DNA of 64,000 nt from an uncultured Peptostreptococcaceae bacterium (GCA_964484935.1 CAZAFW010000005.1:291-64290), one strand, 5' to 3'; numbered from the stretch's first letter, positions 414 through 45,931 are shown. The notes: generated by a model not told the origin, from the sequence alone. Numbers and translations: made by a program.

Positions 414-556
414 ACAAAAACCGCCTAAAAAAATCACGGCGGTCAGACTATCCTTGCACACTTCAGACCTAAAAATTGAAGAAGGTCATGCAATCCGGAC
501 TCTTGACTTTGCGTCCCCGTCTTTCGGCGGGTTTGCCTTTTTCGTTGCATTCATTG
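414..556 (-). promoter_or_regulatory. c-di-GMP-I (GEMM-I) riboswitch A with terminator-type expression platform
   Basis: Minus strand reads GGCAAACCCGCC-GAAA-GACGGGGACGCAAAGUC. These are the GEMM-I core motifs, with a GNRA tetraloop on the P2 hairpin. A hairpin follows (ACCGCC..GGCGGU, 420-443), then UUUUUGUUUUU directly before the SD of the 1..368 gene. Confidence 0.8.
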
Positions 557-659: not shown

Positions 660-795
660 AAGCTTCCGAAAAAAAATTACGGCAACCAGACTATCCTTGC
701 ACATCTTCAAGCTTTTTGCTTGAATGAATTTCTGCAATTTGGACTCTTGGCTTTGCGTCCCCGTCTTCCGGCGGGTTTGCCTTTTCCTTTTGTTA
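660..795 (-). promoter_or_regulatory. c-di-GMP-I (GEMM-I) riboswitch B (distal copy)
   Basis: Minus strand reads GGCAAACCCGCC-GGAA-GACGGGGACGCAAAGCCAAGAGUCC. The 3' part (GCAAGGAUAGUCUGG) is near identical to copy A. It is followed by a weak hairpin, a U-run and an orphan SD-like GGGAGGAAGUGG at about 621-632. Confidence 0.75.
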
Positions 796-4131: not shown

Positions 4132-4275
4132 AAAAAATCAAAAAACCGCCGTAATCAATCTACGGCAGCCAGACTGTCCTGAGTTCACTGTTATGTATGG
4201 GGTGCGATTATTGCTTCTTTGGACGGACTCTCGGCTTTGCGTCCCCGCCTTCCGGCGGGTTTGCCCTTTTCGTAT
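4132..4275 (-). promoter_or_regulatory. c-di-GMP-I (GEMM-I) riboswitch C with intrinsic terminator, leader of the LPXTG adhesin
   Basis: Minus strand reads GGGCAAACCCGCC-GGAA-GGCGGGGACGCAAAGCCGAGAGUCC. A terminator follows (CUGCCGUA-GAUUGAU-UACGGCGG, 4146-4168) with UUUUUUGAUUUUUU, 38 nt before the start codon. Confidence 0.85.
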
Positions 4276-17477: not shown

Positions 17478-17906
17478 CTAACCAAGATTGCAATTGATTC
17501 GTTTCAGGCTTTGTATGAGTTCTTTTTTGCCGTCATCGCTGATTCCATGGGTCATCCTTTGCTCGAAAGCTTCTATTGTTTCCCATGCGGCCTCTTGCAG
17601 TCCGGCGCCCTTGTCCGTAAGGCTGATCCGGTTTATCCTCGCATCCTCTTCACTGACCGTCCTCCTGAGAAATCCCTTTACGGAAAGCAAGTCGACCAGC
17701 CCCGTGAGTGTCGAAGGCTTTACATCTATGAACTCGTGTATTTGCTTCTGCGTCAAGACTCCCTTTTTCCAAAGGCAATTGAGTACCCTGAATTGCGCAT
17801 AGCTTATCCCCAACGGGGAGAGCGACAGATTGAGAAGATAGTTCGTTTTCCTAGCTATTTCCTGTATGAAATAGCCGGAGTGGTTGCTGAATTCGTTTTG
17901 CGCCAT
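17478..17906 (-). CDS. MarR family transcriptional regulator
   Basis: Winged-HTH region ISYAQFRVLNCLWKKGVLTQKQIHEFIDVKPSTLTGLVDLLSVKGFLRR. Start moved to MAQNEF (ATG 17904-17906, GGAGG 9 nt upstream). Confidence 0.8.
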   Translation of the reverse strand: MAQNEFSNHSGYFIQEIARKTNYLLNLSLSPLGISYAQFRVLNCLWKKGVLTQKQIHEFIDVKPSTLTGLVDLLSVKGFLRRTVSEEDARINRISLTDKGAGLQEAAWETIEAFEQRMTHGISDDGKKELIQSLKRINCNLG

Positions 17907-17953
17907 ATTATTTAGCCTCCTAAACAATATTGTAAATCAAAATTCCCGCTCGG

Positions 17954-18319
17954 TCAATCCGTTTTAGGCCTTTCGGAAAAACCCAGGACTTCACCGCATT
18001 CAAGCCCCAGCCTTTCCGCGCTTCCTGACGGCATTTCCATCACCGACCTGCCATTTTTATATATGCCGCTTACAGACCATGGCTTGAGGTTCTTTTCAAC
18101 GGCAAGTATGCAGCCGTTTTTGTCAAGAAAGACCGCGTCGATAGGCATCTTCATGAAAAACATGTGTATCGATTTGCACGGCTCTATAAGAAGAGCCTCA
18201 GCCCCGACATCAGATTTGCCCATCAGCCCCAGGAATCTTTCCATGAAATTTTCTGTCATGTTTATATCATTTATTATGCGCTCTTTGCGTTTTTCTGAAT
18301 AAGCCGTCAATTTTTTCAT
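17954..18319 (-). CDS. DUF192 domain protein (last gene of the Tad operon)
   Basis: FLGLMGK...IEPCKSIHMFFMKMPIDAVFLDKNG...ME(M)P pattern typical of DUF192/COG1430. The gene lies 2 nt after tadC. Confidence 0.65.
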   Translation of the reverse strand: MKKLTAYSEKRKERIINDINMTENFMERFLGLMGKSDVGAEALLIEPCKSIHMFFMKMPIDAVFLDKNGCILAVEKNLKPWSVSGIYKNGRSVMEMPSGSAERLGLECGEVLGFSERPKTD

Positions 18320-18321
18320 TT

Positions 18322-19242
18322 TTATCTCCCAAAAATATCAATCAGCCTGATTACGGACGGTCCCAATATCACTACAAAAATAGCCGGAAAAATGAACATG
18401 ACCAGAGGAAACAAAATTTTTATGGGCGCTTTCATCGCTTTTTCCTGCGCCTTCTGCTTTCGTTTTTCCCTCAGCTGGGCCGACTGCACCCTAAGCACAT
18501 TTGTTATCGGAACACCAAGCTCGTCAGCCTGTATGACGGCCGCGAGAAAAGCTGTAAGCTCGGGAACATCGCATCGGTCGCCCATGTTTGAAAGGGCATT
18601 TTTCCTGTTTGCTCCAAGCTTCATTTCTCCGATTGTCTTTTTGAACTCCTCAGAAAGAGGCCCGTCCATTTTTTCAACAATTTTTCCCAAAGCCCCATCG
18701 AAGGAAATCCCCGCTTCCACACATACAGTAATCAAATCCAATGCATCCGGCATTTCGTGCTCAAGCTGAAGCTTTCGCTCCCTCGCAATTCTCGAGAGCA
18801 TTGCCCGCGGAAAGGCATTTCCAAAAAGCATTGCCACCAGCGCGGAAGAATACGCCTTTGCAGGGTTTTCCAACACCGTTGCCAGATAAATCCCCAAAAG
18901 GATGGGCAGAATCAATCCTGTCCCGAGTCTTATTGTTATCCATCTGCCCTGAGTCATTCCCCATGGAGTCCCGGCTCGGGCTATGTCCAATCCGATTGCC
19001 TTTATCATCCTCTTTGGAGTTATGTTTTCTATGAAACGGCTAAACCTTGCGAGTGCAGGCTTGATTATCCTTTCACGGAACGGGCTGTCGAGCTCGCTCT
19101 TTTCCTTGTCGCCTCCGCATCTTTTGGCCAATGCTTCCAGCCGTTCTTCTATTCTTATTCCATCCTTACCCAATCCCGACAAAATCAATTGCATAATAAA
19201 AAACACGCTCAGTCCCGCCGACACCGCTATGGCTTGCGTCAC
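18322..19242 (-). CDS. tadC: Tad pilus platform protein TadC (type II secretion system F family)
   Basis: T2SS-F domain (MPDALDLITVCVEAGISFDGAL...), polytopic membrane topology, and position after tadB. Confidence 0.8.
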   Translation of the reverse strand: MTQAIAVSAGLSVFFIMQLILSGLGKDGIRIEERLEALAKRCGGDKEKSELDSPFRERIIKPALARFSRFIENITPKRMIKAIGLDIARAGTPWGMTQGRWITIRLGTGLILPILLGIYLATVLENPAKAYSSALVAMLFGNAFPRAMLSRIARERKLQLEHEMPDALDLITVCVEAGISFDGALGKIVEKMDGPLSEEFKKTIGEMKLGANRKNALSNMGDRCDVPELTAFLAAVIQADELGVPITNVLRVQSAQLREKRKQKAQEKAMKAPIKILFPLVMFIFPAIFVVILGPSVIRLIDIFGR

Positions 19243-19255
19243 GACAATACACCTC

Positions 19256-20239
19256 CTAGAGTTTTATGTCCACTATTTTCTTTATTGCCATGTAACCCAA
19301 AATCTCGCTTACGACCGCGCCTCCAAGCATTATTTTGCCTAAAGGGTTTTCTATCAGAAGACGCATGTACTCCACATCTATGAATGTTATTGCAAGCCCG
19401 AGCAGTACAGGCAGCATGGCTACTATTATTCCCGAGAATCTGCCTTGCGCCGTCAATGTTTTCACTTCTGTCTTTATTCTAACCCTGTCCCTTATTGTTT
19501 TTGTTATCTGGTCAAGTATTCCGGAGAGATTGCCGCCCGTTTGGCGCTGTATCATTATTGCCGTCACCATCAGTTCCAGGTCGTTGCTTACGATTCTTTC
19601 AGAGAGATTTCTCAAAGCCTCTTCTGTTTGAACTCCGAGTCGCATCTCCCTCAAAAGCTTGCCGAACTCGTCAGCCATGGGATCCGGCATTTCCCTCACA
19701 ACCGAATCAACTGCCTGCATGAAGCTGTGCCCGACCTTGAGGGAATTCGAGATAAGGGCTATGGTGTCTCCGAGCTGATTGTTGAAATCCTTGCAGCGTT
19801 TGTTTTTCTTTCTGGCAATAAGCATGGGCGGCAGTAAAAACCCAAAAACCGCTCCGACAAAGGCAAACAAATTAAGTCCCCCGGCCGATTTGAACAAAAT
19901 GGCGACAATGCCTGCCGAAACCATTTGAAAAACCATTATTTCTTCGCCCCTGAGAAAGAGTCCTGCCCTGAGTGCTTCCTTTTGCAGATGTGCCGAATAG
20001 CGCTTGCCCAGTTTCATTGATTTGACAATCTTGTACCACACCTTGTAGATTCCCAGTGTTTTTATGTCGGCAATTTTTTTCCTTTTTCTTTTTTTACCTG
20101 CGTTCGCTTCTTTGTCCTTCTTTCCTACATAAAAATTCACGCGGTCGATTATTCGGTCATTGAAGATCGACCTGTAAATAAAAAGATACGCCATTAAAAA
20201 AACCGAAAACGCAACAAGAGCAGAAATCAATGCAACCAT
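19256..20239 (-). CDS. tadB: Tad pilus platform protein TadB (type II secretion system F family)
   Basis: T2SS-F domain (LGDTIALISNSLKVGHSFMQAV...RQTGGNL) and position after the ATPase gene. Confidence 0.8.
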   Translation of the reverse strand: MVALISALVAFSVFLMAYLFIYRSIFNDRIIDRVNFYVGKKDKEANAGKKRKRKKIADIKTLGIYKVWYKIVKSMKLGKRYSAHLQKEALRAGLFLRGEEIMVFQMVSAGIVAILFKSAGGLNLFAFVGAVFGFLLPPMLIARKKNKRCKDFNNQLGDTIALISNSLKVGHSFMQAVDSVVREMPDPMADEFGKLLREMRLGVQTEEALRNLSERIVSNDLELMVTAIMIQRQTGGNLSGILDQITKTIRDRVRIKTEVKTLTAQGRFSGIIVAMLPVLLGLAITFIDVEYMRLLIENPLGKIMLGGAVVSEILGYMAIKKIVDIKL

Positions 20240-20251
20240 GTCACCAGCTCC

Positions 20252-21586
20252 TTAAACCAAGGGGTTTGGGATTCCCTTGGATTCCATTTCACCGATAAAG
20301 CTCGGCATTATATTCATGAATTCAAAATGTCCTTTGACTTTCCCCTCCGGGGTCATTCCCTGCTGTATGAACCTAAAAATGTCCTGCATTATTACGATGT
20401 CGCCCTCCATCCCCTGAACCTCTGATATGTGGGTGATTTTTCTGCTTCCGTCTTTCATTCTGGATTGGTGGATCACAAGATGCAGAGCCGAGCCTATCTG
20501 CTCCCTTATTGCGCGGACGGGAAGGTCCATGCCGGCCATCAAGACCATTGTCTCGAGTCTGGAAAGCATATCCCTGGGAGAATTGGCATGCCCCGTGGTT
20601 ATAGATCCGTCATGCCCGGTATTCATTGCCTGCAGCATGTCGAGCGCCTCTCCGGACCTGACTTCCCCTACTACTATCCTGTCGGGCCGCATCCTCAGGC
20701 TGTTCTTTACAAGGTCCCGTATGGACACGGATCCGCTACCCTCGATATTTGCCGGTCGCGTTTCAAGCCTAACTACGTTGACCTGGTCCATCCTCAGCTC
20801 AGCCGCGTCCTCTATGGTCACTATCCTTTCCTCATTGGGAATGAAGGATGAAATTACATTGAGTGTCGTTGTTTTACCGCTGCCTGTTCCTCCCGAGACA
20901 ATTATGTTCAGTCTTGCATGCACGCACGCCTTTATGAATTCCGCCATTTTGGGGGTCAGTGTTCCGAAAGTAACCAGATCCTTTATCTGAAAAGGCTCCT
21001 CGGAAAATTTTCTTATTGTTATTGACGACCCGTCGATTGCAAGCGGCGGAATTATGGCATTAACCCGTGATCCGTTGGGAAGCCTGGCGTCCACCATGGG
21101 AGAGCTTTCATCAATCCTCCGACCCAGGGGGGCAACGATTTTTTCTATTATGTGGTTGACATGGGCATTGTTCTTGAATTCCTTGTCTGTCAGGATGAGC
21201 TTGCCTTTCTTTTCGACAAAAATCCGGTCATATCTGTTGACCATTATTTCGGTCACATCCCCATCTCTCAAATAGGTGGTTATGGGTCCGAATCCCATTA
21301 TTTCATCGACCAGCTCCTGGAATATGTCAAAAAAAATCTTTTGGTTTATTTCCAGGCCCTCCTCCTCGAGAATCTTTTGCAGAAGTTTTTCTATTTCTTC
21401 CTCTAGCTGCTCCTGTTCCTCTTCCATTGTCTCGAAATTGAGATTGTATTCCTCAACTATCCTGGCTTGCACTTTTTCTATCAGCCGGGCGTATTCAAGC
21501 TTTTCAACGCTTTTTTGGCCGGATGCCGTTTTTTTTGCATCTCCAACGGACTTTTGGTTTTTCCCCAGTCTTTCCTTAAGAGTCAC
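20252..21586 (-). CDS. cpaF: Tad pilus secretion ATPase CpaF/TadA
   Basis: Walker A GGTGSGKTTTLN. VirB11/CpaF-like motifs IVTIEDAAEL, RPDRIVVGEVRSGEA and NTGHDGSITTGHANS. Confidence 0.9.
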   Translation of the reverse strand: MTLKERLGKNQKSVGDAKKTASGQKSVEKLEYARLIEKVQARIVEEYNLNFETMEEEQEQLEEEIEKLLQKILEEEGLEINQKIFFDIFQELVDEIMGFGPITTYLRDGDVTEIMVNRYDRIFVEKKGKLILTDKEFKNNAHVNHIIEKIVAPLGRRIDESSPMVDARLPNGSRVNAIIPPLAIDGSSITIRKFSEEPFQIKDLVTFGTLTPKMAEFIKACVHARLNIIVSGGTGSGKTTTLNVISSFIPNEERIVTIEDAAELRMDQVNVVRLETRPANIEGSGSVSIRDLVKNSLRMRPDRIVVGEVRSGEALDMLQAMNTGHDGSITTGHANSPRDMLSRLETMVLMAGMDLPVRAIREQIGSALHLVIHQSRMKDGSRKITHISEVQGMEGDIVIMQDIFRFIQQGMTPEGKVKGHFEFMNIMPSFIGEMESKGIPNPLV

Positions 21587-21597
21587 GCCTACGCCCC

Positions 21598-22749
21598 CTA
21601 TCTTTTCAATATGCCCTTGCTTATCCTGCCGAAAGCCTTGTTTGTTTTACTAGGTCCCTTAGCGTTTACATGGGGTAGGCCCTTGTTTACCGCTTTTATA
21701 AGGGATTTCTTCGCTTCAGGAATTTTATAGTCAATCTTTCTTTCGAAAATACGTTCCAGGTCGGCGTATCCGATTCCAAGCTTAGGATTTGCCATATTGA
21801 CAAGTATCTTGATTTTTTCGTCGGGATATTCAAGCGATTTCATAATCTCTATGCCTATCTTCACATTCTTTACAGAAACTATGTCCATTGCCGACACCAT
21901 GAATATTTCATCCGAGAAATCAAGTGCGGCAAGGGTGGCGTCGCTGAAGCTGCTTGCCATGTCTATGACGATATAATCAAATGTCTGCCTCAGGAAAGAA
22001 AGAATCTCCCTTATGGAATCCCCTCCCATATACTCTGCATATTCGGGGCTTGGGGGCGAAGCCAAAACCATCAGGTTTGACATGTATTCGGTCATCAAAC
22101 CATTTATTGTCGAAGTGTCTATGCTGGCGGTCTCCTCCATTATGTCTGCAATGGTCATTTCAGGCTCAATGTTTGCCATCAATGCCACATCTCCGAATTG
22201 AAGGTCCAAGTCCACCAGGGCTATCCTTTTCCTGCTCTTTTTTGCCATATCCACTGCAAGATTGAGGGCTATGGTTGTCTTGCCCACTCCGCCCTTTGTG
22301 CTGAAAATACCTATTATTCGACCGTCCTTTTTATCGTCCCTCTCGTCACTTGCCTTGGGAATTTCAAATTTGACGCTTTTTTTGTATGTCAGCCGTATTG
22401 TGCTTATTAGCCTGTTGATGTCAAGAGGCAGGGTTATATAGTCCTTTGCGCCGCTTACCATGGCTTTCCTTACCTGTTCGGCTCCGATCTCCCTTGCCAT
22501 AATTATCACAGACGTGTTCCTGCATGTTTCGGTGATTTTTTCGCACGCCTCGTATCCATCCATTTGCTGCATTTCGGAATATATCAGCACTATGTCCGGC
22601 ATAAGCCTCTCTGATAATTCCACAGCGGCAGGCCCTGTATCCGCTTCTCCAACCACTTCAATGACTTTTTCAGTCATAAGATACCGCTTTATGAGCTCGC
22701 GGGTGTCCCTCCTGTTTTCTGCTATCAAAACACTGATTTTTTTACCCAT
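21598..22749 (-). CDS. cpaE: CpaE/TadZ-like pilus localisation ATPase with N-terminal atypical receiver domain
   Basis: The ParA/MinD deviant Walker A is STKGGVGKTTIALNLA. The N-terminal 120 aa has a CheY-like fold, but the acceptor position reads DIVLIYSEMQQMDG (no Asp) and the acidic pair reads AEN. Confidence 0.8.
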   Translation of the reverse strand: MGKKISVLIAENRRDTRELIKRYLMTEKVIEVVGEADTGPAAVELSERLMPDIVLIYSEMQQMDGYEACEKITETCRNTSVIIMAREIGAEQVRKAMVSGAKDYITLPLDINRLISTIRLTYKKSVKFEIPKASDERDDKKDGRIIGIFSTKGGVGKTTIALNLAVDMAKKSRKRIALVDLDLQFGDVALMANIEPEMTIADIMEETASIDTSTINGLMTEYMSNLMVLASPPSPEYAEYMGGDSIREILSFLRQTFDYIVIDMASSFSDATLAALDFSDEIFMVSAMDIVSVKNVKIGIEIMKSLEYPDEKIKILVNMANPKLGIGYADLERIFERKIDYKIPEAKKSLIKAVNKGLPHVNAKGPSKTNKAFGRISKGILKR

Positions 22750-22760
22750 TTCAATCCCCC

Positions 22761-23519
22761 CTATTTGGGAATAACTATCTTGCCCTTGTCTGTTACAAGA
22801 TCATTCCTTACAACACCCGGCGTAAAGTATACGGAATCGTCTCCAAAAGGCCTGAGAGCCAGTTTTATGCTTCCCATTTCCTCTCCCAGCACAAGCTTTT
22901 CGCCCTCTTCGGCTGAAACAGCAACCGTCACAGCGTAATTGTTTGGTATTTCCTTCCTCTCTTCTCCCTCTACATTCATGATTTCCTTGCTGACGGCAAG
23001 GACCTGTATGTCCTGGAGAAGCAGAATCGATGTTTCCGGCATATAAATTTTTGAACCTGCCGTTTCTATCGTCTTTTCGTATGCGGTGATATAAATGTCA
23101 ACGTAATCGTTTGGCCGTATCAAGTCTCCAACTCCGCTGAATTGGTCTGTATTGACCGAAATCGCCCGCTTTCCCGCCGGAACCATGAAAGCCAGCTCGT
23201 TTTCATCATTTCTTATCATTCGCTCCCGTGCAAATATTTCCCCTTCAAGTATCCGTTCCTTTGTTGTCATGCCTACTATTTCGTTCCTGTCCGTAAGGGC
23301 TGAAGCGGGAATGTAGGAGTCCTCCCCGACATCCATCGACTCTATGTCGACTCCGCTTATTCTGCTTCCCGGCATCAAGGTCTTCTTGGCCACAAGAATT
23401 GTCTTGTCGGCCCTTACTGCATCGATAGTCTTTATGTCTCCCAGCAACTGATATGTCAAATAGGCTGCCGCAACTGCAAAGAAAAGAGCCGCCAGCAATA
23501 TTTTCTTTTTTGCTTTCAT
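22761..23519 (-). CDS. cpaB: Flp pilus assembly protein CpaB/RcpC (SAF domain)
   Basis: An N-terminal TM is followed by SAF-like VLVAKKTLMPGSRISGVDI and an RcpC-like C-terminus. Position is within the tad operon. Confidence 0.75.
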   Translation of the reverse strand: MKAKKKILLAALFFAVAAAYLTYQLLGDIKTIDAVRADKTILVAKKTLMPGSRISGVDIESMDVGEDSYIPASALTDRNEIVGMTTKERILEGEIFARERMIRNDENELAFMVPAGKRAISVNTDQFSGVGDLIRPNDYVDIYITAYEKTIETAGSKIYMPETSILLLQDIQVLAVSKEIMNVEGEERKEIPNNYAVTVAVSAEEGEKLVLGEEMGSIKLALRPFGDDSVYFTPGVVRNDLVTDKGKIVIPK

Positions 23520-23532
23520 TTTCGTCCCCTCC

Positions 23533-24441
23533 TCATTGCATCAGCTTGAGTCCGTAAGCTCCATAATTGTTTATCGTATCGTCTATGTCTCCGCTTGCCA
23601 CATATTCCATGAATCTTCCTACAACTACCGCAGCTCCGTCCTCGGTCCTGGTGTCCTCGACGAAGAATACGGCAAAGCCGCTCACCTCAATCTGGTCGCG
23701 TCCGAGTGCGTCGAAGGAATCCACAACAGGTATGGTCCAAAGCCGTATTGAATCCTTCGTGAAGCTTTCAAAAGTGCAGTTGTCGTTGCCTAGAATATAG
23801 TTTATTCCATCGACAGTCGGGCCGCTCATGTTTCCGGGCTCGGTGTCAATGATTTCCCCCACTGATATTTTACCGCTGTATCCAAACTTGACATTGTCCT
23901 TGAAGCTGTCGGCCCCTCTAAGGCCAAGCGCAACGGCCCCGTAGTTGCCCGTTTCCCCGTCGCCTGCCCCTTCCTTGAGCGTAACGCTTTCTCCATAGCT
24001 GAAGTCGCTCCATTCCACGGCGAAAGGACGCAATCCGTCGTATACGGATCCTGCCGTTCCCAGCTTCACGTAGGAGCTTTGGCTGACTTCCCTGCTTGAA
24101 AGCCCGAAGATCCCCGCGAATCTGTAATTGACTGTTTGATCTGCGGTGACACGGATTCCGCATGCATCTTCGTCTATGTCAACTAAGATCCTTCCCGGCG
24201 ACGCTCCGTTTGCCTGCGCGTATTCAATTGCAATGCTTCTTGCCGCATCCGGATACATGGGAAGTTCCTGGCCTCCGGCTAGTGCGGAGGCGTCGACGGC
24301 GTTTAAAAGTCTGTGTTTTTCAATCATTACAGCTCCGACATCTATGACAAGTGCCGACATCCCGATGATTGCAGAAAGGGCTATTGCGGTCATTACCATT
24401 ATGTTCCCCTTTTGATTAAGACTTTTTGCCACGCAAATCAC
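23533..24441 (-). CDS. tadG: TadG-like pseudopilin / Flp pilus assembly protein
   Basis: TadE/G-type N-terminus KGNIMVMTAIALSAIIGMSALVIDVG. Start is uncertain: GTG at 24441 or GTG at 24432. Confidence 0.65.
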   Translation of the reverse strand: MICVAKSLNQKGNIMVMTAIALSAIIGMSALVIDVGAVMIEKHRLLNAVDASALAGGQELPMYPDAARSIAIEYAQANGASPGRILVDIDEDACGIRVTADQTVNYRFAGIFGLSSREVSQSSYVKLGTAGSVYDGLRPFAVEWSDFSYGESVTLKEGAGDGETGNYGAVALGLRGADSFKDNVKFGYSGKISVGEIIDTEPGNMSGPTVDGINYILGNDNCTFESFTKDSIRLWTIPVVDSFDALGRDQIEVSGFAVFFVEDTRTEDGAAVVVGRFMEYVASGDIDDTINNYGAYGLKLMQ

Positions 24442-24451
24442 CTCTCTGTAT

Positions 24452-24844
24452 CTACTCCATCCTCATGGATGTAGTAATTTCTATGTGGTGCGGATTGTCC
24501 AAAAGCGCGCTGATTACAGGTGTAACCAGGTCTATGTCGTATGACACGGTAACAAGTACGGTTTCTCCCCTTGTTCTTGCCGATTCTTCGGGAGTGATGG
24601 AAACCCCCACTCTTGTGAGGTCCAAACCCGAAAACGAATCTTCTACGCTTTGCATAGCTGCAAGGGTGCTTCCTCCTAGTGCCGTGTTTCTGGCGCCTTC
24701 CCTGGCAGCATTGTTTACAACAAGATAAGCGTTCATTACTCTTCCGAATTCAAAAGTCCCCATGAAAAGTAGAAGGAGAATCGGAAGAATCAAAGCCATT
24801 TCAACCATGGCCTGCCCTTTTTGATTTTTAAGTTTTCCGATCAT
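24452..24844 (-). CDS. tadE: TadE-like pseudopilin
   Basis: N-terminus KNQKGQAMVEMALILPILLLLFMGTFEFG is the TadE motif. Start moved to the second ATG (24842-24844), with GGAGG 8 nt upstream. Confidence 0.75.
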   Translation of the reverse strand: MIGKLKNQKGQAMVEMALILPILLLLFMGTFEFGRVMNAYLVVNNAAREGARNTALGGSTLAAMQSVEDSFSGLDLTRVGVSITPEESARTRGETVLVTVSYDIDLVTPVISALLDNPHHIEITTSMRME

Positions 24845-24904
24845 TCTTCTCCCCTCCATATAGGATATAAAGGGGACTCCCCGAATCAGGTCGCCCCCTT
24901 CCTT

Positions 24905-25108
24905 TTATACCAGCATTGTCAATCTTCCGAAAAACGAATCGAGCCATGCCCCAATAAAATGCAGATTGAGCAAGGCAACCAAACTGATGCTCGTTATCGT
25001 CAACACATATTCCACCATGCCTTGTCCCTTTTCGTTTGCAGCAATTAGCATAAATCGCCCAGCCCGCAATTTCATTTTTTCGCTTTGAAAATTCCGGGAA
25101 GTGTCCAT
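24905..25108 (-). CDS. flp: Flp-family pilin 2
   Basis: Contains the Flp processing motif EKGQG/MVEYVLTIT. Its ATG overlaps the flp1 stop (TAATG). The leader is unusually long, so the true start could be an internal Met. Confidence 0.65.
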   Translation of the reverse strand: MDTSRNFQSEKMKLRAGRFMLIAANEKGQGMVEYVLTITSISLVALLNLHFIGAWLDSFFGRLTMLV

Positions 25109-25293
25109 TACGATGCCGCAGGTGTTAAAGCAGTTGTAATGCTGTCGAACATAGTCCCCAGTCCACCTCCGAGAGTATTTATTGCAACCATCGCGATCAA
25201 TGCTATTCCACCGATTATCAGTGCGTATTCAACCATTCCCTGTCCTTCTTCATTCCTTACAAATCCAATCATTTGTACCAAGTATGCAAACAT
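25108..25293 (-). CDS. flp: Flp-family pilin 1 (first gene of Tad operon)
   Basis: 61 aa, with EEGQG/MVEYALIIGGIALIAMVA (G/xxxxEY Flp motif plus hydrophobic helix). SD GGAGG lies 7 nt upstream. Confidence 0.85.
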   Translation of the reverse strand: MFAYLVQMIGFVRNEEGQGMVEYALIIGGIALIAMVAINTLGGGLGTMFDSITTALTPAAS

Positions 25294-25298
25294 TTTTT

Positions 25299-25440
25299 CC
25301 TCCTTTGAATTATCCCGATGATAAAGTCTTCTTTCGAAGGCTTAATGATACTTCGGCGGCTCGGCTGCCACGGGAATTCCCCAAGGCCCGTCACTTTGCG
25401 TCCTTTCCTTTCGGAAAGTTTGCCTTTATCGGTATTCCGA
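25299..25440 (-). promoter_or_regulatory. c-di-GMP-I (GEMM-I) riboswitch E, leader of the flp/tad operon; possible SD-sequestering platform
   Basis: Minus strand reads AAAGGCAAACUUUCC-GAAA-GGAAAGGACGCAAAGUGACGGGCC...CCCGU. Outer helix: CCGAUAAAG (25424-25432) pairs with CUUUAUC(AUC)GG (25315-25326). CCUUCGAA (25333-25340) can pair with UUCAAAGG, which overlaps the SD (25303-25310). No U-tract terminator is present. Confidence 0.8.
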
Positions 25441-25482
25441 AATACTCTCAAGCGGAAATCGCTTCATCATCATTATTTGCCG

Positions 25483-26034
25483 TCAGTCGATTATTTCCAC
25501 AATTCCATAATTTGCGTGATACAGAATGGTCAAGCCCAGATTCTCTGTTATGAATCTGAGGGGCACCATTGCCCGGCCATTGAGTATCAATGCCGGCACG
25601 TCAATCTCGTTTGTTTTGCCGTTGACGCTCACCTTATTTCCGCCGACCCAGATGAGAATTTCCTTTTTGTCTTTTTTGACTGTAACTTTTCTTTCAACGG
25701 GATCCCATAGCACCGAGGCTTCGAATGCCTCCGCAATGGTCCTTACCGGAACCATTGTCCGTCCGTCCTTTATAACAGGAGGCGTATCGAACTTAAAATT
25801 CATCGACTCGTTCAATATGCATTCGACCCCCAGCGGAAAGACATTCTCATAACTTGCAGTTATCAATTGAGCCTTTTCCATAAGCAAGGACATTTCCTCT
25901 GCTGAATACAATCCTTTTGCCTTCTTGCTTCTCTCGACAAGATTGTCCCCCTCGCAATATCCCATATTTCCTATTCCGTTGAAAACCAGTATGACAATCA
26001 TTAAAAACAAAGCGATAGGCTTCTTTATAGGCAT
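25483..26034 (-). CDS. Secreted copper amine oxidase N-terminal (stalk) domain protein
   Basis: Signal/TM sequence IALFLMIVILVFNGIG. Two CAO-N repeats: DGRTMVPVRTIAEAFEASVLWD and NGRAMVPLRFITENLGLTILY. Confidence 0.7.
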   Translation of the reverse strand: MPIKKPIALFLMIVILVFNGIGNMGYCEGDNLVERSKKAKGLYSAEEMSLLMEKAQLITASYENVFPLGVECILNESMNFKFDTPPVIKDGRTMVPVRTIAEAFEASVLWDPVERKVTVKKDKKEILIWVGGNKVSVNGKTNEIDVPALILNGRAMVPLRFITENLGLTILYHANYGIVEIID

Positions 26035-26045
26035 TCACCCCCTCA

Positions 26046-26205
26046 ATAAAACAAACCCGTATCGCATACGATACGGGTCTTTCAACCTTTTTCCACCAAA
26101 AAACCAATTTGAGCATTTTCGGTGACCCAGCCACCATTGGTTTCACCCTTTAGGTCTGTGGTTTTGCGTCCCGGCCTTTCAACCGGTTTGCCGTTATCGA
26201 TATGC
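26046..26205 (-). promoter_or_regulatory. c-di-GMP-I (GEMM-I) riboswitch D with strong intrinsic terminator
   Basis: Minus strand reads ACGGCAAACCGGUU-GAAA-GGCCGGGACGCAAAACCACAGACC...GGUGGCUGGGUCACCG. A perfect 10-bp terminator follows (ACCCGTATCG 26055-26064 pairs with CGATACGGGT 26069-26078), then UUGUUUUAUU, then SD GAGGGGG. Confidence 0.8.
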
Positions 26206-26314
26206 TTAAAAATTTGTCTTATTCCATTTGACTATAGAATACGTATGCGGTTTTACTTTTGGGGCACATTTCATGTCTTTCATTATTTTTTTTTAAAATA
26301 CCCGCATCATACTT

Positions 26315-27916
26315 CTATTTCATTGCTATAAGCTTTACTTTTTTCCCTCTTTCCGATTCTACTTTTTCATTTTTTTTGTCGTTTTTTATTTCTTCATTCC
26401 TGTTTTCATCAGGCTCTGCGTCTTTTACCTTTCCACCGGAGCTATTTTCCTTGCTTGCTTGATTCTTCGGCAAACTTTCAATGTCCGCATTTGATGATGG
26501 ACTGTTTTTTTCAGTCTTGGCGACTTTTTCTTTTGCCTTTTTCTCCAGTCCGCCCGACCCATCACCATCGGCGGCTTTTAATGAATTTTCTTTTTTAAAC
26601 CCGATTTTGTTTCCGCCACTCGAATCTGTTTGGGTCTTTTCCCCACTGGCAATATTCGACGGACCGACAAAATCATCAACCTTGGCAACTTTTTTATTCG
26701 ATTGTTTTTCGGATTTGCCCGTCGCATCGTCTTTAACAGCTTTGCCTGTTTCTTCGTTGTCAATCTTGATTTTGTTTCCGCCGCTTGACGCAATTTCAAC
26801 CTTCTTTTCATTTTGTTTCTTCGCAAGACCGGCAAATGCAACTTCTGCTTGCTCTTTTTTATCTTTAACCGACAAAACATCTTCAAATCCGTCCGCAAGA
26901 GTCATGTCTGCAATTTCTTCGTTTCCGCCCAGCGCGGTTTTGTCATTCTTTTTCTCCGATGTTTTGCCATTTTCAGACTTTCGATCTTTTGCCGCATCGG
27001 CTTTCATAGACACTTTTTCTTTTTTATGGCCAGAAAGACCCGGGATATCAACATTTCCAAGCATTTCTTCGCTCTGCGCTTTTTCAGGCGTCTTTGCCGT
27101 ATGATTGGACTGTTGCGATATTTCTCTTCGCCCGTCTTTTGCAAGACTTTTGAAAACACGCACTTTTTCTTCATCTATCAAACTGTTTTCAATTATTTCT
27201 GAAGCCTTCATGCCGTTTATTTCCTCTAGGCTGAATGGCGCGACCTCTCCGCAAATTTCATACACCTTGTATTTGCCCAGGCTGGTCTCCATAGTTTTGC
27301 TTTCTTCGTAGTCTTCCCTATCGACTTCAAGAACAAAAACCTCTATTTGCTTTTGGGCTATCATGGGCTCTTCAAAAATTTTTCCGGCTATTTGTTCGGC
27401 ATAACCGGCCTTGCCGGATTTCAAATCCGCCGCCGAAACGATAACCTTTGAATCCGCTTTCAAATAATGGGTTTTTTCCGCCTCTTCAAGTGTCCTGTTT
27501 ATGGCTTTCTCAATGCTTAGTCCCTCCAAACCGCAGTCAGCTATGTCCCGTCCGTCTTCATTCATCGCTTCCGCCCGAATGACAAAATTATCCTTGTCCA
27601 GGTAATATTGAATGCTTGGATTAATATCCATGCTGACCACCGCATACACATTTTGAGACGGCAATTTCTCAAATCCAAAGGCCATCGCGATTGCAAAAAT
27701 TACCATTGCCGCAGAAAACAAACCTCTGTAGACTTTCTTGCGCCCTGCCTGTTTTCCCTCATAAATGTCTTCCCGGGTATATATGATTCTGTCTCCCTCC
27801 GAAAGAGAACCTTTCTTTACAACCTTTTCATATACTCCCTCATCGCTAAGTACAATTCCGTAATTTTTTTTGACTTCGATTACGATCCCCTTATTTATCA
27901 ACAAGCTCCCCTCCAT
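26315..27916 (-). CDS. rsgI: Anti-sigma-I factor RsgI-like protein with long Lys/Glu/Ser/Gly-rich extracytoplasmic tail
   Basis: RsgI_N-like N-terminus KGIVIEVKKNYGIVLSDEGVYEKV and a single TM (LFSAAMVIFAIAMAFGF). The C-terminal ~280 aa are low-complexity with repeated SSGGNK / SGG motifs. The ATG at 27914-27916 overlaps the sigI 3' end by 26 nt. Confidence 0.7.
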   Translation of the reverse strand: MEGSLLINKGIVIEVKKNYGIVLSDEGVYEKVVKKGSLSEGDRIIYTREDIYEGKQAGRKKVYRGLFSAAMVIFAIAMAFGFEKLPSQNVYAVVSMDINPSIQYYLDKDNFVIRAEAMNEDGRDIADCGLEGLSIEKAINRTLEEAEKTHYLKADSKVIVSAADLKSGKAGYAEQIAGKIFEEPMIAQKQIEVFVLEVDREDYEESKTMETSLGKYKVYEICGEVAPFSLEEINGMKASEIIENSLIDEEKVRVFKSLAKDGRREISQQSNHTAKTPEKAQSEEMLGNVDIPGLSGHKKEKVSMKADAAKDRKSENGKTSEKKNDKTALGGNEEIADMTLADGFEDVLSVKDKKEQAEVAFAGLAKKQNEKKVEIASSGGNKIKIDNEETGKAVKDDATGKSEKQSNKKVAKVDDFVGPSNIASGEKTQTDSSGGNKIGFKKENSLKAADGDGSGGLEKKAKEKVAKTEKNSPSSNADIESLPKNQASKENSSGGKVKDAEPDENRNEEIKNDKKNEKVESERGKKVKLIAMK

Positions 27917-28628
27917 CCTCGTCAAATTCAGGCAATTGATTTCTAATATCAGGCCAGTCATTAATTAATATAAGAACTGCCGCCGTTATGAATCCATTGC
28001 TTCTGCGAATCGACTTTTGGCTTATTTGCATCTCTTTTCTTATATGGCTGAACGGCAATTTTTTTTTCGCTAAAAATTCGTTTTTCAAAATTGGGTTCGA
28101 ACTGACCATTTTTGCGATACGAAAAGCGTTTAACCTCGTATCATTGTGCTTGGGCGACTCATCAAGCAATTGTTCCAATGTTATGTCGAATTCACTAAGT
28201 TTCATTTTAAATTCTTTCAATTGCTCTTTTACGTCTATTTCGGAAGTAAAATCCCCGGAACTGAATGCCCCTTCCAAGACATTCCCTTTATCGGTTTCAA
28301 AGGAGGATAGAGGCAAAGCCCTGTTGCGGCTTTCCTTTTTTTTGTAGTCTTTTACTCTGCTCGAAATAACCAAATCGGCATATGAAATGAAATTTCCTTT
28401 GTCGGGTTCGTATCTTTGCAAAGCCTCGTCAAATGCTTTTAGCCCTATTGAAAATTCGTCGCTTTCTGTCGAATCCAGATAAGCGTCAATACATTTTGAT
28501 ACGCTTTTTACAATAAATGGGATATAATCGCGAATAAAGGCCTCTTTTTCCTGTTTGTTTCCATTTTTTATCGATTTTATTCTTCTTTCAATAACTTGAG
28601 CGCCCTTGCTTGAAGTTCTTTTAACCAC
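27891..28628 (-). CDS. sigI: RNA polymerase sigma factor SigI family
   Basis: KEAFIRDYIPFIVKSVSK, GLKAFDEALQRYEPDKGNFISYADLVISSRVKDYKKKE and the C-terminal HTH region match the SigI-type sigma-70 subfamily. The gene is directly coupled to an rsgI-like gene. Confidence 0.75.
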   Translation of the reverse strand: MVKRTSSKGAQVIERRIKSIKNGNKQEKEAFIRDYIPFIVKSVSKCIDAYLDSTESDEFSIGLKAFDEALQRYEPDKGNFISYADLVISSRVKDYKKKESRNRALPLSSFETDKGNVLEGAFSSGDFTSEIDVKEQLKEFKMKLSEFDITLEQLLDESPKHNDTRLNAFRIAKMVSSNPILKNEFLAKKKLPFSHIRKEMQISQKSIRRSNGFITAAVLILINDWPDIRNQLPEFDEDGGELVDK

Positions 28629-28711
28629 GATAATATTCCCCCGTCGTATAAAGGATACGTCCGCCTTGATTATTTTAAGTCGCTATAGCGTCAAAAAGTA
28701 AAAATTTAGTT

Positions 28712-30615: not shown

Positions 30616-30661
30616 ATAAATTGAATAGTTTCGAAATTATAAAGAGAAAGGATTGTCCGCA

Positions 30662-45739: not shown

Positions 45740-45786
45740 TGTAACCTTCCTTCCTGGCATCACGGTGCCAAATTAAAGTTGATTTG

Positions 45787-45880: not shown

Positions 45881-45931
45881 GATATTCCCATTTCAAGAAA
45901 TATAACACGGATTCTTTTAAAAGTCAATCAG

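What the first reader, a model, noticed from the sequence alone, without database searches (positions are those of the whole stretch)
17954..25440. Complete Gram-positive Tad/Flp pilus operon placed under a c-di-GMP-I riboswitch with an apparent SD-sequestering platform
Ten co-directional genes form the operon: flp1, flp2, tadE, tadG-like, cpaB, REC-cpaE, cpaF, tadB, tadC and DUF192. Gaps are 2-45 nt, and one pair overlaps by 1 nt.

The 5' leader contains a textbook GEMM-I core (GGCAAAC-P2 with GAAA tetraloop-GGACGCAAAG). There is no U-tract terminator. Instead CCUUCGAA (25333-25340) can pair with UUCAAAGG, which overlaps the flp1 SD.

c-di-GMP riboswitch control of type IVa pili (via GEMM-II) and of adhesins is established in Clostridioides. 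Direct GEMM-I control of a Tad/Flp locus through a translational platform is not something I know to be characterised.

No prepilin peptidase (TadV/CpaA) gene is present in the operon, although both Flp proteins carry the G/xxxxEY cleavage motif.
Basis: partly seen in the sequence, partly recalled or inferred. Interest (0 to 1): 0.65.

Follow-up and report, generated by a model that had tools for sequence, protein, structure and literature searches.

The report
Two c-di-GMP riboswitches gating Tad pilus operon

Summary
There are ten co-directional Tad/Flp genes (25293→17954, minus strand). A genuine c-di-GMP-I aptamer lies at 25433-25351 (Rfam 68 bits), no terminator follows it, and the operon has no prepilin peptidase.

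A second c-di-GMP-I aptamer sits at 26202-26118 and has a strong terminator at 26080-26053. A conserved Cu_amine_oxidN1 gene (26034-25483) lies between the two aptamers. A sigI-rsgI pair with a sigma-I-type promoter lies upstream. The unit is therefore most likely an 11-gene operon with two riboswitches in series.

Riboswitch 1 is predicted to be an OFF switch, because its anti-P1 helix shows true covariation.

Riboswitch 2, the finding itself, has canonical binding-site nucleotides although RF03167 (the "GGC" variant) scores best. Its whole 190-nt spacer is more conserved than neighbouring codon third positions. The spacer folds into a rod that leaves the Shine-Dalgarno sequence open. Its innermost helix competes with the canonical P1.

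Translation-level control remains the best guess but is unproven, and its sign is only inferred (OFF).

GEMM association with cpaA/pilus genes has been listed since 2007. This is a new member of a known kind with an unusual serial architecture.

The parts
27891..28628 (-). sigI-like alternative sigma factor gene
   Evidence: NCBIfam SigI models, E 5e-59 (199.6 bits, below curated cut-off); TIGR02895 scores 179.8 against a cut-off of 185. No Pfam hit at 1e-3.
26315..27961 (-). rsgI-like anti-sigma-I factor gene
   Evidence: Pfam RsgI_N and RsgI_M. The same gene order occurs in L083 and L085.
26240..26264 (-). sigma-I-type promoter-like motif CCCCAAAA-N13-CGTA(TTCTAT)
   Evidence: Pattern match (2 in the window, 0.49 expected). 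It fits the consensus 'AAA 13-14N CGWA' of PMC4711584. A similar AAAA-N13-CGTATCCTTTAT lies upstream of sigI. It is conserved in relatives (alignment). Function is inferred.
26118..26202 (-). riboswitch 1 aptamer (c-di-GMP-I)
   Evidence: RF01051, 75.4 bits, E 5.5e-13. The same element occurs in L001, L003-L005, L083-L085.
26094..26124 (-). anti-P1 hairpin of riboswitch 1: aptamer 3' strand CACCGAAAA (26124-26116) pairs with UUUUUGGUG (26102-26094)
   Evidence: One position reads A-U, C-G, U-A or U-G in different genomes, which is compensatory change. Duplex energy is -11.6 kcal/mol.
26045..26080 (-). intrinsic terminator of riboswitch 1 (12-bp stem 26080-26053 plus U-run)
   Evidence: Terminator scan. 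The stem is kept in 7 genomes. It forms when the aptamer is enforced and is replaced by an antiterminator in the free MFE.
25483..26034 (-). gene 1: secreted Cu_amine_oxidN1-domain protein (183 aa)
   Evidence: Pfam PF07833, E 1e-33. Among the 88 related loci searched, a homologue immediately upstream of flp was found only in eleven that also carry the upstream riboswitch.
25294..25482 (-). conserved intercistronic leader containing riboswitch 2
   Evidence: Identity to relatives is 82-100% in both flanks and 87-98% in the aptamer, against 40-80% at third codon positions of flanking genes.
25351..25433 (-). riboswitch 2 aptamer (the finding)
   Evidence: RF03167, 68.0 bits. It has A, not G, at the position that distinguishes the GGC consensus. 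Compensatory changes occur in P2 and distal P3.
25462..25471 (-). P0 5' strand GAUGAUGAAG (pairs with 25326-25317)
   Evidence: MFE and RNAalifold. 79 of 80 cells are paired, and 5 positions vary on one side compatibly.
25454..25461 (-). conserved 8-nt junction loop CGAUUUCC (UUUCC is complementary to GGAGG/GGAAA of the RBS)
   Evidence: Unpaired in the consensus fold, with only 2 substitutions in 8 genomes. Its role is not established: the shuffle control did not show that the real 5' flank masks the SD better than random sequence.
25448..25453 (-). P0' 5' strand GCUUGA (pairs with 25345-25340)
   Evidence: 48 of 48 cells are paired, and 4 positions vary compatibly.
25437..25445 (-). x: 5' strand of register-shifted helix P1ext GUAUUUCGG (pairs with 25356-25348)
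   Evidence: 9 bp, present in all consensus and MFE folds. It pairs the C92-equivalent 25356. It is invariant apart from the first base.
25430..25435 (-). y: 5' strand of canonical P1 AUACCG (pairs with CG-AA-GUAU, 25355-25348)
   Evidence: The inner C-G/G-C pairs are the P1 pairs of the RF03167 model. The geometry matches Vc2 P1a next to C92 (PMC11705072). Invariant.
25348..25356 (-). z: shared 3' strand CCGAAGUAU, used by either P1ext or canonical P1
   Evidence: Identical in 8 genomes and paired in all folds.
25317..25326 (-). P0 3' strand CUUUAUCAUC
25291..25306 (-). flp1 ribosome-binding site AAAGGAGG (25306-25299) and AUG (25293-25291)
   Evidence: Sequence. Unpaired in the consensus structure. 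P(unpaired) of GGAGG is 0.76 for read-through transcripts.
25108..25293 (-). flp1 (Flp pilin, G/MVEY)
   Evidence: Pfam Flp_Fap, E 8.6e-12.
24905..25108 (-). flp2 (second Flp-like pilin; likely start at 25075)
   Evidence: No Pfam hit. 45% identity to Flp1, E 2e-12. Called as 56 aa in relatives.
24452..24859 (-). tadE-like pseudopilin
   Evidence: Pfam TadE, E 3e-19.
23533..24441 (-). tadG-like (Tad domain)
   Evidence: Pfam PF13400. 273 homologues found.
22761..23519 (-). cpaB/rcpC
   Evidence: Pfam RcpC, E 1e-24.
21598..22749 (-). REC-tadZ/cpaE (receiver domain plus ParA/MinD-type ATPase)
   Evidence: Pfam Response_reg, AAA_31, ParA.
20252..21586 (-). cpaF/tadA ATPase
   Evidence: Pfam T2SSE, E 2e-63.
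19256..20239 (-). tadB
   Evidence: Pfam T2SSF.
18322..19242 (-). tadC
   Evidence: Pfam T2SSF.
17954..18319 (-). DUF192 gene
   Evidence: Pfam DUF192, E 1e-17.

Best explanation
The Tad/Flp genes are the distal ten genes of what is most likely an 11-gene transcription unit in an uncultured Peptostreptococcaceae-like clostridium. The order is: sigma-I-type promoter, c-di-GMP-I riboswitch 1 with a terminator platform, a secreted Cu_amine_oxidN1 protein gene, c-di-GMP-I riboswitch 2 (the finding), then flp1, flp2, tadE, tadG-like, cpaB, REC-tadZ, cpaF, tadB, tadC and DUF192.

Riboswitch 1. Without ligand, the aptamer's 3' strand is captured by a downstream anti-P1 strand. This frees the 5' strand (CGAUAACGG) to pair with the 5' half of the terminator, which gives antitermination. 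With c-di-GMP, P1 is locked and the terminator forms. It is therefore a predicted OFF switch.

Riboswitch 2. It has canonical ligand-contacting nucleotides (G20/A47/C92 equivalents) and is not the 'GGC' specificity variant. It has no terminator. Its 190-nt spacer is conserved end to end and folds into a rod in which the 5' flank pairs with the 3' flank (P0, P0', P1ext). A strong SD lies 10 nt beyond the rod and is single-stranded. The innermost rod helix (P1ext, 9 bp) and the canonical P1 use the same 3' strand, and P1ext pairs the C92-equivalent. Ligand binding must therefore shift the P1 register and loosen the rod.

The most likely output is post-transcriptional: reduced translation initiation of the major pilin, and possibly altered mRNA stability, when c-di-GMP is bound. 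It would act as a second checkpoint on transcripts that escaped riboswitch 1.

Shown: both aptamers, the terminator, the conservation, the competing helices, and covariation in the anti-P1 hairpin of riboswitch 1.

Inferred: co-transcription, sigma-I dependence, the OFF sign of both switches, and translation as the output of riboswitch 2.
For: - Two aptamers above Rfam gathering scores. The same pair flanks the Cu_amine_oxidN1 gene in L001, L003, L004, L005, L083, L084 and L085.
- In L007, L015 and L017 a single aptamer precedes a Cu_amine_oxidN1 homologue that lies just upstream of flp. ORF lists for L015 and L017 show a spacer of roughly 75 nt or less before flp and then tadE and tadG. This argues for co-transcription.
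- Among the 88 related loci searched, a Cu_amine_oxidN1 homologue next to flp was found only in the eleven with this upstream riboswitch.
- Riboswitch 1: terminator. The anti-P1 hairpin has A-U/C-G/U-A/U-G at one position. The free MFE is antiterminated at -58.6 kcal/mol, while the aptamer-enforced fold at -50.8 spontaneously contains the terminator. The nascent transcript before the terminator's 3' strand is made pairs the aptamer's 5' strand with the terminator's 5' strand.
- Precedent: class I riboswitches in C. difficile act as OFF switches (PMC6200980).
- Riboswitch 2: GACGCAAAG, not GACGCGAAG, in all 13 aligned aptamers. P2 and P3 show compensatory changes. No terminator. Both flanks are 82-100% identical against 40-80% at third codon positions.
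- The rod is predicted independently by RNAfold (z -2.76) and RNAalifold. 98.7% of its cells are paired, with 9 extra pair types, against 33-58% paired when partners are slid.
- C92 pairs with the ligand, and P1a integrity is needed for binding in Vc2 (PMC11705072).
- SD accessibility in models is 0.48-0.88 in the rod ensemble and 0.23-0.62 with canonical P1 enforced. It is lower in 7 of 8 homologues.
- Sigma-I promoter motif and adjacent sigI-rsgI genes.
Against: - No experimental data exist. No TSS is known, and a weak sigma-70-like match (25499-25472, 9/12) could give riboswitch 2 its own promoter.
- Rod covariation is one-sided only (via G.U), with no double compensatory change, and rests on 8 closely related sequences.
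- P1ext, canonical P1, the SD and the candidate anti-SD segments are all invariant, so the register-shift model cannot be tested by covariation.
- Nearest-neighbour energies put canonical P1 8.5-13.8 kcal/mol above P1ext. That is large relative to plausible ligand stabilisation.
- The predicted drop in SD accessibility is modest. It is reproduced when the 5' flank is shuffled, so no specific anti-SD is identified.
- For the distant leaders L015 and L053, thermodynamic folding did not discriminate ON from OFF.
- OFF regulation of an adhesive pilus by c-di-GMP is counter-intuitive.
Confidence: 0.55

Rival explanations
1. A single GEMM-I riboswitch forms the 5' leader of a ten-gene Tad operon and controls translation because CCUUCGAA (25340-25333) pairs with UUCAAAGG (25309-25302) across the SD.
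For: The complementarity exists in the window at 7 of 8 positions. There is no terminator. If the transcript started at about 25445, so that the 5' flank is absent, the 3' flank does mask the SD in the model (P(unpaired) 0.12). The CCUU:AAGG / CCUUC:GGAGG core is invariant.
Against: Two of three variable positions lose pairing in relatives, and one position is mismatched everywhere. Only 82.8% of cells are paired, with no covariation. The CUUC core is locked in an invariant hairpin. The helix would cross P0, making a pseudoknot, when the conserved rod is formed. The model ignores the upstream riboswitch and gene, and the conserved 5' flank.
Confidence: 0.12
2. Riboswitch 2 controls RNA processing, stability or structure-mediated coupling rather than SD masking. 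The rod juxtaposes the upstream stop codon (12 nt 5' of P0) and the flp1 SD (10 nt 3' of P0). It could be a nuclease target, a 5'-protective structure for a processed high-abundance pilin mRNA, or a device for handing ribosomes from gene 1 to flp1. c-di-GMP would modulate this by shifting the P1 register.
For: The SD is open in the conserved fold, and no specific anti-SD could be shown. The rod ends exactly at the ORF boundaries. The entire spacer, including the loops, is conserved. Pilin genes generally need higher expression than assembly genes (general knowledge).
Against: This is purely structural inference. The helices are interrupted (10, 6 and 9 bp) and short for RNase III. No processing signal was identified.
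Confidence: 0.2
3. Riboswitch 2 is an independent 5'-UTR riboswitch with its own promoter in the end of the Cu_amine_oxidN1 gene. It acts as an ON switch, because ligand-stabilised aptamer folding keeps the 3' flank away from the RBS.
For: There is a promoter-like match TGGAAA-16-AATAAT at 25499-25472. With 5' ends at 25465-25445, SD accessibility falls to 0.40-0.12 in the free ensemble, so aptamer folding could matter. Other class I riboswitches in the same window are ON designs.
Against: The promoter match is weak (9/12) and lies in coding sequence. Such a TSS would remove most of P0, yet P0 positions keep pairing through 5 one-sided changes. Distant relatives have no promoter or aptamer between the Cu_amine_oxidN1 gene and flp.
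Confidence: 0.1
4. Riboswitch 2 is a duplicated aptamer with no regulatory output of its own.
For: No recognisable terminator or proven sequestering helix. More distant relatives manage without it.
Against: The aptamer and both flanks are conserved above synonymous-site level in 8 genomes. The aptamer stems carry compensatory changes. The binding-site nucleotides are intact.
Confidence: 0.03

Closest known systems
Vc2 c-di-GMP-I riboswitch of Vibrio cholerae (tfoY leader)
   Same: Same aptamer class with G20/A47/C92-type pocket, a P1(a) helix abutting C92, and a GAAA tetraloop in P2. Reported to repress translation by masking a distant RBS (Inuzuka 2018, cited in PMC11705072).
   Different: Vc2 is a 5'-UTR element in a proteobacterium and has a canonical tetraloop receptor. 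Here the aptamer is intercistronic, the P3 receptor is non-canonical (CCUUGG...CGUGG), and a register-shifted P1 plus an enclosing rod is present. The masking element is not identified.
Clostridioides difficile class I riboswitches (e.g. Cd1/Cdi-1-3 upstream of flgB)
   Same: Related lineage (Peptostreptococcaceae). Class I aptamer with a terminator platform acting as an OFF switch on a surface-appendage operon (PMC6200980). Riboswitch 1 here has the same predicted logic.
   Different: The target is a Tad/Flp pilus operon, not flagella. There is a second aptamer inside the operon. The same window also holds class I aptamers with ON-type terminator overlap, unlike the uniform OFF behaviour reported for C. 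difficile.
C. difficile Cdi2_4 (c-di-GMP-II) riboswitch upstream of pilA1
   Same: c-di-GMP riboswitch control of a type IV filament in a clostridium (Bordeleau 2015, cited in PMC6916266).
   Different: It belongs to a different aptamer class (II), controls a different pilus type (IVa), and is an ON switch. No c-di-GMP-II aptamer was found in the 52 related Tad loci that were scanned with Rfam.
GEMM-associated pilus genes listed by Weinberg et al. 2007, and Geobacter GEMM-Ib (pilM cGAMP riboswitch)
   Same: A bioinformatic association of GEMM with cpaA, pulF, pilM/O/Q and Geobacter 'pili assembly genes' is already on record (PMC1950547; PMC9262584).
   Different: Those are mostly proteobacterial and are not characterised for Tad. 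Here the locus is a monoderm Tad locus with the aptamer directly before flp.
Tandem c-di-GMP riboswitches of Bacillus thuringiensis (Bc3-5 triple tandem; Bc1 dual terminator)
   Same: Several class I aptamers or platforms act in series on one transcript (Zhou 2016, cited in PMC11218506).
   Different: There the aptamers are adjacent in one 5' UTR. Here an ORF separates them, and the two platforms are of different types.

Membership tests
c-di-GMP-I riboswitch (GEMM-I, RF01051 / clan CL00126) | Covariance-model match above the curated gathering score | tested here: met
   68.0 bits on RF03167 (gathering score 59). A lower-scoring same-clan hit at or above its gathering score was suppressed. The near-identical L003 copy scores 67.2 bits on RF01051 (gathering score 35).
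c-di-GMP-I riboswitch (GEMM-I, RF01051 / clan CL00126) | P1a/P2/P3 three-helix core with a GNRA tetraloop on P2, supported by covariation | tested here: met
   GAAA tetraloop. P2 pair 88-95 reads CG/UG/UA and distal P3 pair 121-129 reads GC/AU across 8 genomes.
c-di-GMP-I riboswitch (GEMM-I, RF01051 / clan CL00126) | Ligand-contacting nucleotides equivalent to Vc2 G20, A47 and C92 | tested here: met
   AAAG-GC, GACGC-A-AAG and G-C-CGAAG align to the consensus positions. Roles of C92 and G20 are taken from PMC11705072. The A47 mapping rests on my own knowledge of the Vc2 structure.
c-di-GMP-I riboswitch (GEMM-I, RF01051 / clan CL00126) | Tetraloop receptor in P3 (type-1 GEMM) | tested here: not met
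   P3 reads CCUUGG...CGUGG instead of CCUAAG...UAUGG. Riboswitch 1 keeps CCUAAA...AAUGG. Not all GEMM-I members have the receptor (PMC11218506).
c-di-GMP-I riboswitch (GEMM-I, RF01051 / clan CL00126) | Binds c-di-GMP and changes downstream expression | not testable with these tools
   Needs in-line probing or ITC, and reporter assays.
c-di-GMP-I-GGC variant (RF03167) | G in place of the intercalating A (consensus GACGCGAAG) | tested here: not met
   The window and all 12 related aptamers have GACGCAAAG. RF03167 probably scores best because it models the P1 pairs and a short P3, not because of the diagnostic base. The meaning of 'GGC' is inferred from the two Rfam consensus sequences.
Tad/Flp (type IVc) pilus system, monoderm form | Flp-family pilin with the G/XXXXEY processing motif | tested here: met
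   Flp_Fap, E 8.6e-12, with GQG/MVEY in both small ORFs.
Tad/Flp (type IVc) pilus system, monoderm form | CpaF/TadA ATPase, TadB and TadC platform proteins, TadZ/CpaE, CpaB/RcpC, TadE/TadG-type minor pilins | tested here: met
   Pfam T2SSE, two T2SSF, Response_reg+ParA/AAA_31, RcpC, TadE, Tad.
Tad/Flp (type IVc) pilus system, monoderm form | Dedicated prepilin peptidase (TadV/CpaA, peptidase A24) | tested here: not met
   Absent from the operon, from 20 other ORFs scanned, and from a motif and polytopic-ORF screen of the window. It is also absent within 4 kb in L083 and L085. It may be encoded elsewhere in the genome.
SD-sequestering (translational) riboswitch platform | A conserved helix that pairs the SD or start codon in one of two mutually exclusive states | tested here: inconclusive
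The SD is open in the consensus fold. Accessibility falls in 7 of 8 homologues when canonical P1 is enforced, but equally with shuffled 5' flanks.
Transcription-terminating riboswitch platform | Intrinsic terminator downstream of the aptamer, competing with an antiterminator | tested here: not met
   For riboswitch 2, no terminator lies in 25350-25294. For riboswitch 1 the feature is met.

The most novel reading that the evidence does not exclude
The intercistronic aptamer, with its register-shifted P1 (x/y competing for one 3' strand) and an enclosing rod that brings the upstream stop codon next to the flp1 RBS, would be a previously undescribed type of c-di-GMP-I expression platform. It would set the pilin-to-machinery expression ratio inside an operon, through translation, coupling or RNA processing. 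Together with riboswitch 1 and a sigma-I/RsgI promoter, it would place Tad pili in the LOW-c-di-GMP programme, while class I ON switches in the same genome turn on DUF11-type adhesins.
Probability: 0.25. Interest if true: 0.6.

Novelty: new member of a known kind. Interest (0 to 1): 0.42.

Why it matters
This gives a concrete, testable case of direct RNA-level c-di-GMP control of a monoderm Tad/Flp pilus, a system whose regulation in Firmicutes is essentially unstudied. The control has two sensors in series and probably an extracytoplasmic sigma-I/RsgI input.

If the predicted OFF logic holds, Tad pili in these clostridia would belong with motility-type functions (low c-di-GMP), opposite to the type IVa pili of C. 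difficile. The same cell would use one aptamer class for both ON and OFF decisions.

The terminator-less second aptamer is a compact model for how a class I aptamer can act inside an operon.

If instead it behaves as an ordinary leader riboswitch, the finding is simply one more GEMM-I-to-pilus association.

Tried and rejected

2. An internal promoter TCGAAA-17-GATAAT (25337-25309) downstream of the aptamer is rejected. It is a 9/12 chance-level match, and its -10 changes to GATGAT or ATGAT in L083 and L085.

3. Pairing of released x (GAGUAUUUCG) with CGGGAUAAUUC just 5' of the SD appears in the ligand-mimic MFE. It is rejected because L004, L083 and L085 substitutions break it without compensation.

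4. GCAAAUA (25480-25474) pairing with UGUUUGC across the start codon appears in the window MFE. It is rejected because the coding partner differs in L001, L004 and L083.

5. Hairpin UUAUC-AUCGG-GAUAA (25324-25310), considered as a degenerate terminator or sequestor, is only 5 bp, has no U-run, and is weakened in L083.

6. A specific anti-SD role for the 5'-flank UUUCC(G)CUU is not supported by the shuffle control.

7. Membership of the 'GGC' specificity variant is rejected.

8. A metagenome DNA scan for more divergent flp-type leaders returned 57 hits. Only 3 carry the aptamer, and these appear to match sequences already held.

9. The look-up of encoding contigs for P0006, P0007 and P0008 gave contigs cut before the leader or lacking an aptamer.

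10. Thermodynamic ON/OFF inference for L015 and L053 was uninformative, because the terminator forms in both states.

11. Literature searches found no paper on a c-di-GMP riboswitch controlling Tad/Flp. Weinberg 2017 (PMC5737381) has no text on c-di-GMP-I-GGC.

Full report
**What is at the coordinates.** Pfam assigns them as follows:

- Flp_Fap
- no hit for the second small ORF
- TadE
- Tad (TadG-like)
- RcpC/CpaB
- Response_reg plus ParA/AAA_31 (TadZ/CpaE with a receiver domain)
- T2SSE (CpaF/TadA)
- two T2SSF (TadB, TadC)
- DUF192

The second small ORF is 45% identical to Flp1 and keeps GQG/MVEY. Relatives annotate it as 56 aa, so its start is probably at 25075 rather than the overlapping ATG at 25108. 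No peptidase A24 gene is in the operon. None was found among 20 other ORFs scanned with Pfam or by a motif and polytopic-ORF screen of all six frames. The closest public relatives of the TadG-like protein (74-93% identity) come from MAGs labelled Peptostreptococcaceae or Clostridia.

**The aptamer is real and canonical.** Rfam reports a full-length match at 25433-25351(-) of 68.0 bits, E 6e-14. The best model is RF03167 (c-di-GMP-I-GGC). A lower-scoring overlapping match to a family of the same clan, also at or above its gathering score, was suppressed. The 93%-identical copy in L003 scores 67.2 bits on RF01051. The two Rfam consensus sequences differ at GACGC-G/A-AAG. The window and all 12 related aptamers have A there, so the aptamer carries the ordinary pocket. 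G20- and C92-equivalents are present, and their roles are confirmed for Vc2 in PMC11705072. P2 and distal P3 carry compensatory changes across 8 genomes. P3 lacks the canonical tetraloop receptor.

Rfam finds five class I aptamers in the window. One, at 26202-26118(-) (RF01051, 75.4 bits), lies upstream of a 183-aa secreted Cu_amine_oxidN1-domain gene (26034-25483). It is followed by a 12-bp terminator with a U-run at 26080-26053. The aptamer in the finding sits in the 190-nt spacer between that gene and flp1.

Upstream are an rsgI-like anti-sigma gene and a sigI-like gene. At 26264-26240 there is CCCCAAAA-N13-CGTATTCTAT, which fits the published sigma-I promoter pattern 'AAA 13-14N CGWA' (PMC4711584). 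A related AAAA-N13-CGTATCCTTTAT precedes sigI.

**Comparative context.** I fetched 80 related Tad loci from genomes and 8 more by exact-protein look-up, then searched them with a covariance model built from 13 aptamers.

- The two-aptamer architecture is present in L001, L003, L004, L005, L083, L084 and L085. L002 is truncated.
- In L007, L015 and L017 a single aptamer precedes a Cu_amine_oxidN1 homologue that lies just upstream of flp. ORF lists for L015 and L017 show no room for a second aptamer before flp, and tadE and tadG follow.
- In L053 an aptamer with a terminator platform lies directly before flp.
- L079 has a single match about 3.5 kb upstream of tadG, which I did not follow up.
- The remaining loci, roughly 70 of the 80 from genomes, have no class I aptamer. 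Rfam found no class II aptamer in the 52 loci scanned.
- A Cu_amine_oxidN1 homologue next to flp was found only in the eleven loci that carry this upstream riboswitch.

The simplest reading is that the Cu_amine_oxidN1 gene is the first gene of the operon, riboswitch 1 is the ancestral leader, and riboswitch 2 is an addition in the window's lineage.

**Riboswitch 1 mechanism.** The aptamer's 3' strand CACCGAAAA (26124-26116) can pair with UUUUUGGUG (26102-26094). One position of this hairpin reads A-U, C-G, U-A or U-G in different genomes, which is genuine covariation. The aptamer's 5' strand CGAUAACGG (26199-26191) is complementary to the terminator's 5' strand CCGUAUCG.

In ViennaRNA the free MFE (-58.6 kcal/mol) contains the anti-P1 hairpin and an antiterminator and has no terminator. 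Enforcing the aptamer gives -50.8 kcal/mol and the terminator forms spontaneously. The nascent transcript, before the terminator's 3' strand exists, already pairs the aptamer's 5' strand with the terminator's 5' strand. This is the logic of an OFF switch, and it agrees with the experimentally uniform OFF behaviour of class I riboswitches in C. difficile (PMC6200980).

By contrast, the aptamers at 4274-4160 and 546-434 have terminators whose 5' strands overlap the aptamer's 3' end. That is an ON design. The first of them precedes a 1041-aa DUF11/DUF7507 surface protein.

**Riboswitch 2 anatomy.** No terminator follows it. The whole spacer is under selection. Identity to six relatives is 82-100% in the 5' flank, 87-98% in the aptamer and 84-100% in the 3' flank, against 40-80% at third codon positions of the flanking genes.

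RNAfold (z -2.76) and RNAalifold both give the same structure:

- P0: 25471-25462 with 25326-25317
- an 8-nt junction loop, CGAUUUCC
- P0': 25453-25448 with 25345-25340
- P1ext: 25445-25437 with 25356-25348
- the aptamer core
- an invariant hairpin, CUUC-GAAA-GAAG (25339-25328)

The SD (AAAGGAGG, 25306-25299) and the AUG are left unpaired. In the 8-sequence alignment 98.7% of cells in these helices are paired, against 33-58% when partners are slid. Nine positions change on one side compatibly, and none changes on both sides. The support is therefore moderate.

P1ext and the canonical P1 (AUACCG with CG-AA-GUAU; the inner pairs are those of the RF03167 model) use the same 3' strand. P1ext also pairs the C92-equivalent (25356). 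In Vc2, C92 pairs with the ligand, and a properly formed P1a is required for binding. The conserved rod is therefore most simply the ligand-free conformer, and ligand binding must shift the P1 register.

**Testing SD sequestration.** One position is always mismatched, and two of its three variable positions lose pairing.

- For read-through transcripts, the modelled probability that GGAGG is unpaired is 0.76.
- It drops to 0.52-0.12 only if the 5' end is placed at 25470-25445, which removes the 5' flank.
- Enforcing the canonical P1 as a ligand mimic lowers accessibility in 7 of 8 homologues, from 0.48-0.88 to 0.23-0.62.
- The same level is obtained when the 5' flank is shuffled.

So the model says only that the SD is open when the rod forms and is partly masked by pyrimidine-rich flank segments when it does not. 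No specific anti-SD is identified. The nearest-neighbour cost of canonical P1 relative to P1ext is 8.5-13.8 kcal/mol, which is uncomfortably large. Several other candidate helices were rejected because substitutions break them (see Tried and rejected).

**Best explanation and rivals.** I conclude that the finding is a genuine c-di-GMP-I riboswitch. It is the second of two in series on an 11-gene, probably sigma-I-dependent, Cu_amine_oxidN1-Tad operon.

- Riboswitch 1 is a transcriptional OFF switch (confidence about 0.6).
- Riboswitch 2 acts post-transcriptionally at the flp1 RBS. The likely sign is OFF, reached by loosening a rod that otherwise keeps the RBS clear (confidence about 0.35-0.4 for that specific mechanism).
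Conservation argues strongly against the last.

**Novelty.** GEMM association with cpaA, pulF and pil genes was tabulated in 2007 (PMC1950547). A cGAMP GEMM-Ib riboswitch on Geobacter pilM, a class II riboswitch on C. difficile pilA1, tandem class I riboswitches in B. thuringiensis, and a translational Vc2 platform are all in the literature. I found no paper on a c-di-GMP riboswitch controlling a Tad/Flp locus.

The element is therefore a new member of a known kind. What is unusual is the serial, ORF-separated arrangement, the terminator-less second platform with a competing P1 register, and the predicted OFF logic for an adhesive pilus. These points are worth an experiment but are not yet established.

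Noticed in passing
window 434-546(-) and 677-790(-): Two further c-di-GMP-I-class aptamers (66.2 and 64.6 bits) lie in tandem, about 130 nt apart, upstream of an ORF that starts at ATG 367(-) and runs off the window. Both have about 30-nt insertions in P3. The proximal one has a terminator (ACCGCC...GGCGGU plus a U-run) overlapping its 3' end, which is an ON design.
   Followed up: partly
window 4160-4274(-), terminator 4170-4144, gene 4093(or 4133)-1008(-): A class I aptamer whose terminator 5' strand overlaps the aptamer 3' end (predicted ON switch). It lies upstream of a 1041-aa surface protein with DUF11/DUF7507/DUF5979 repeats. This is the opposite predicted logic to the Tad riboswitch in the same genome.
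   Followed up: partly
window 26240-26264(-), 27891-28628(-), 26315-27961(-), and about 28655-28690(-): A sigI-rsgI pair lies directly upstream of the riboswitch-1 leader. Sigma-I-type promoter motifs (AAAA-N13-CGTAT(C/T)CT) precede both sigI and the Tad unit. The RsgI C-terminal half is a K/E/S-rich low-complexity region with no recognisable sensor domain.
   Followed up: partly
L003:3005-3087: The flp-type aptamer of this MAG has A at the G20-equivalent (AAAAGCAAAC instead of AAAGGCAAAC). To my knowledge this is the substitution that shifts GEMM-I towards 3'3'-cGAMP in Geobacter. It could also be a sequencing or assembly variant.
   Followed up: no
window 30653-31783(+): An HD_5/HD-GYP-type protein (Pfam HD_5, E 4e-27; weak similarity to NosR-family c-di-GMP phosphodiesterases) lies 2 kb from the sigI gene. 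It is a possible local c-di-GMP-degrading enzyme.
   Followed up: no
window 17478-17954(-): No terminator was detected between DUF192 (ends at 17954) and the co-directional marR-like gene (17927-17478) and kynureninase gene (17450-16167). Two sigma-70-like matches lie in the 26-nt gap region. The 3' boundary of the operon is therefore not defined.
   Followed up: no
window 26210-26223(-) with 26045-26058(-); L015 leader: The A-rich 5' flank of riboswitch 1 is complementary to the terminator's 3' strand and U-tract (10-14 of 14 pairs in 7 genomes). A similar pairing between the 5' flank and the U-tract appears in the unrelated L015 leader. Its function is unclear.
   Followed up: partly
L007:1896-2242, L017:1933-2358: In the distant relatives the RNase P RNA gene lies immediately upstream of the riboswitch-Cu_amine_oxidN1-flp unit.
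   Followed up: no
window 45784-45886(-): A PyrR binding-site RNA (RF00515, 55.8 bits) lies upstream of what look like pyrimidine genes. This is ordinary.
   Followed up: no
window 4759-6006(-): A second Cu_amine_oxidN1-domain protein, fused to CAP_assoc_N and CAP domains, is encoded just upstream of the 4274-4160 riboswitch. This domain recurs in the c-di-GMP-regulated neighbourhood.
   Followed up: no
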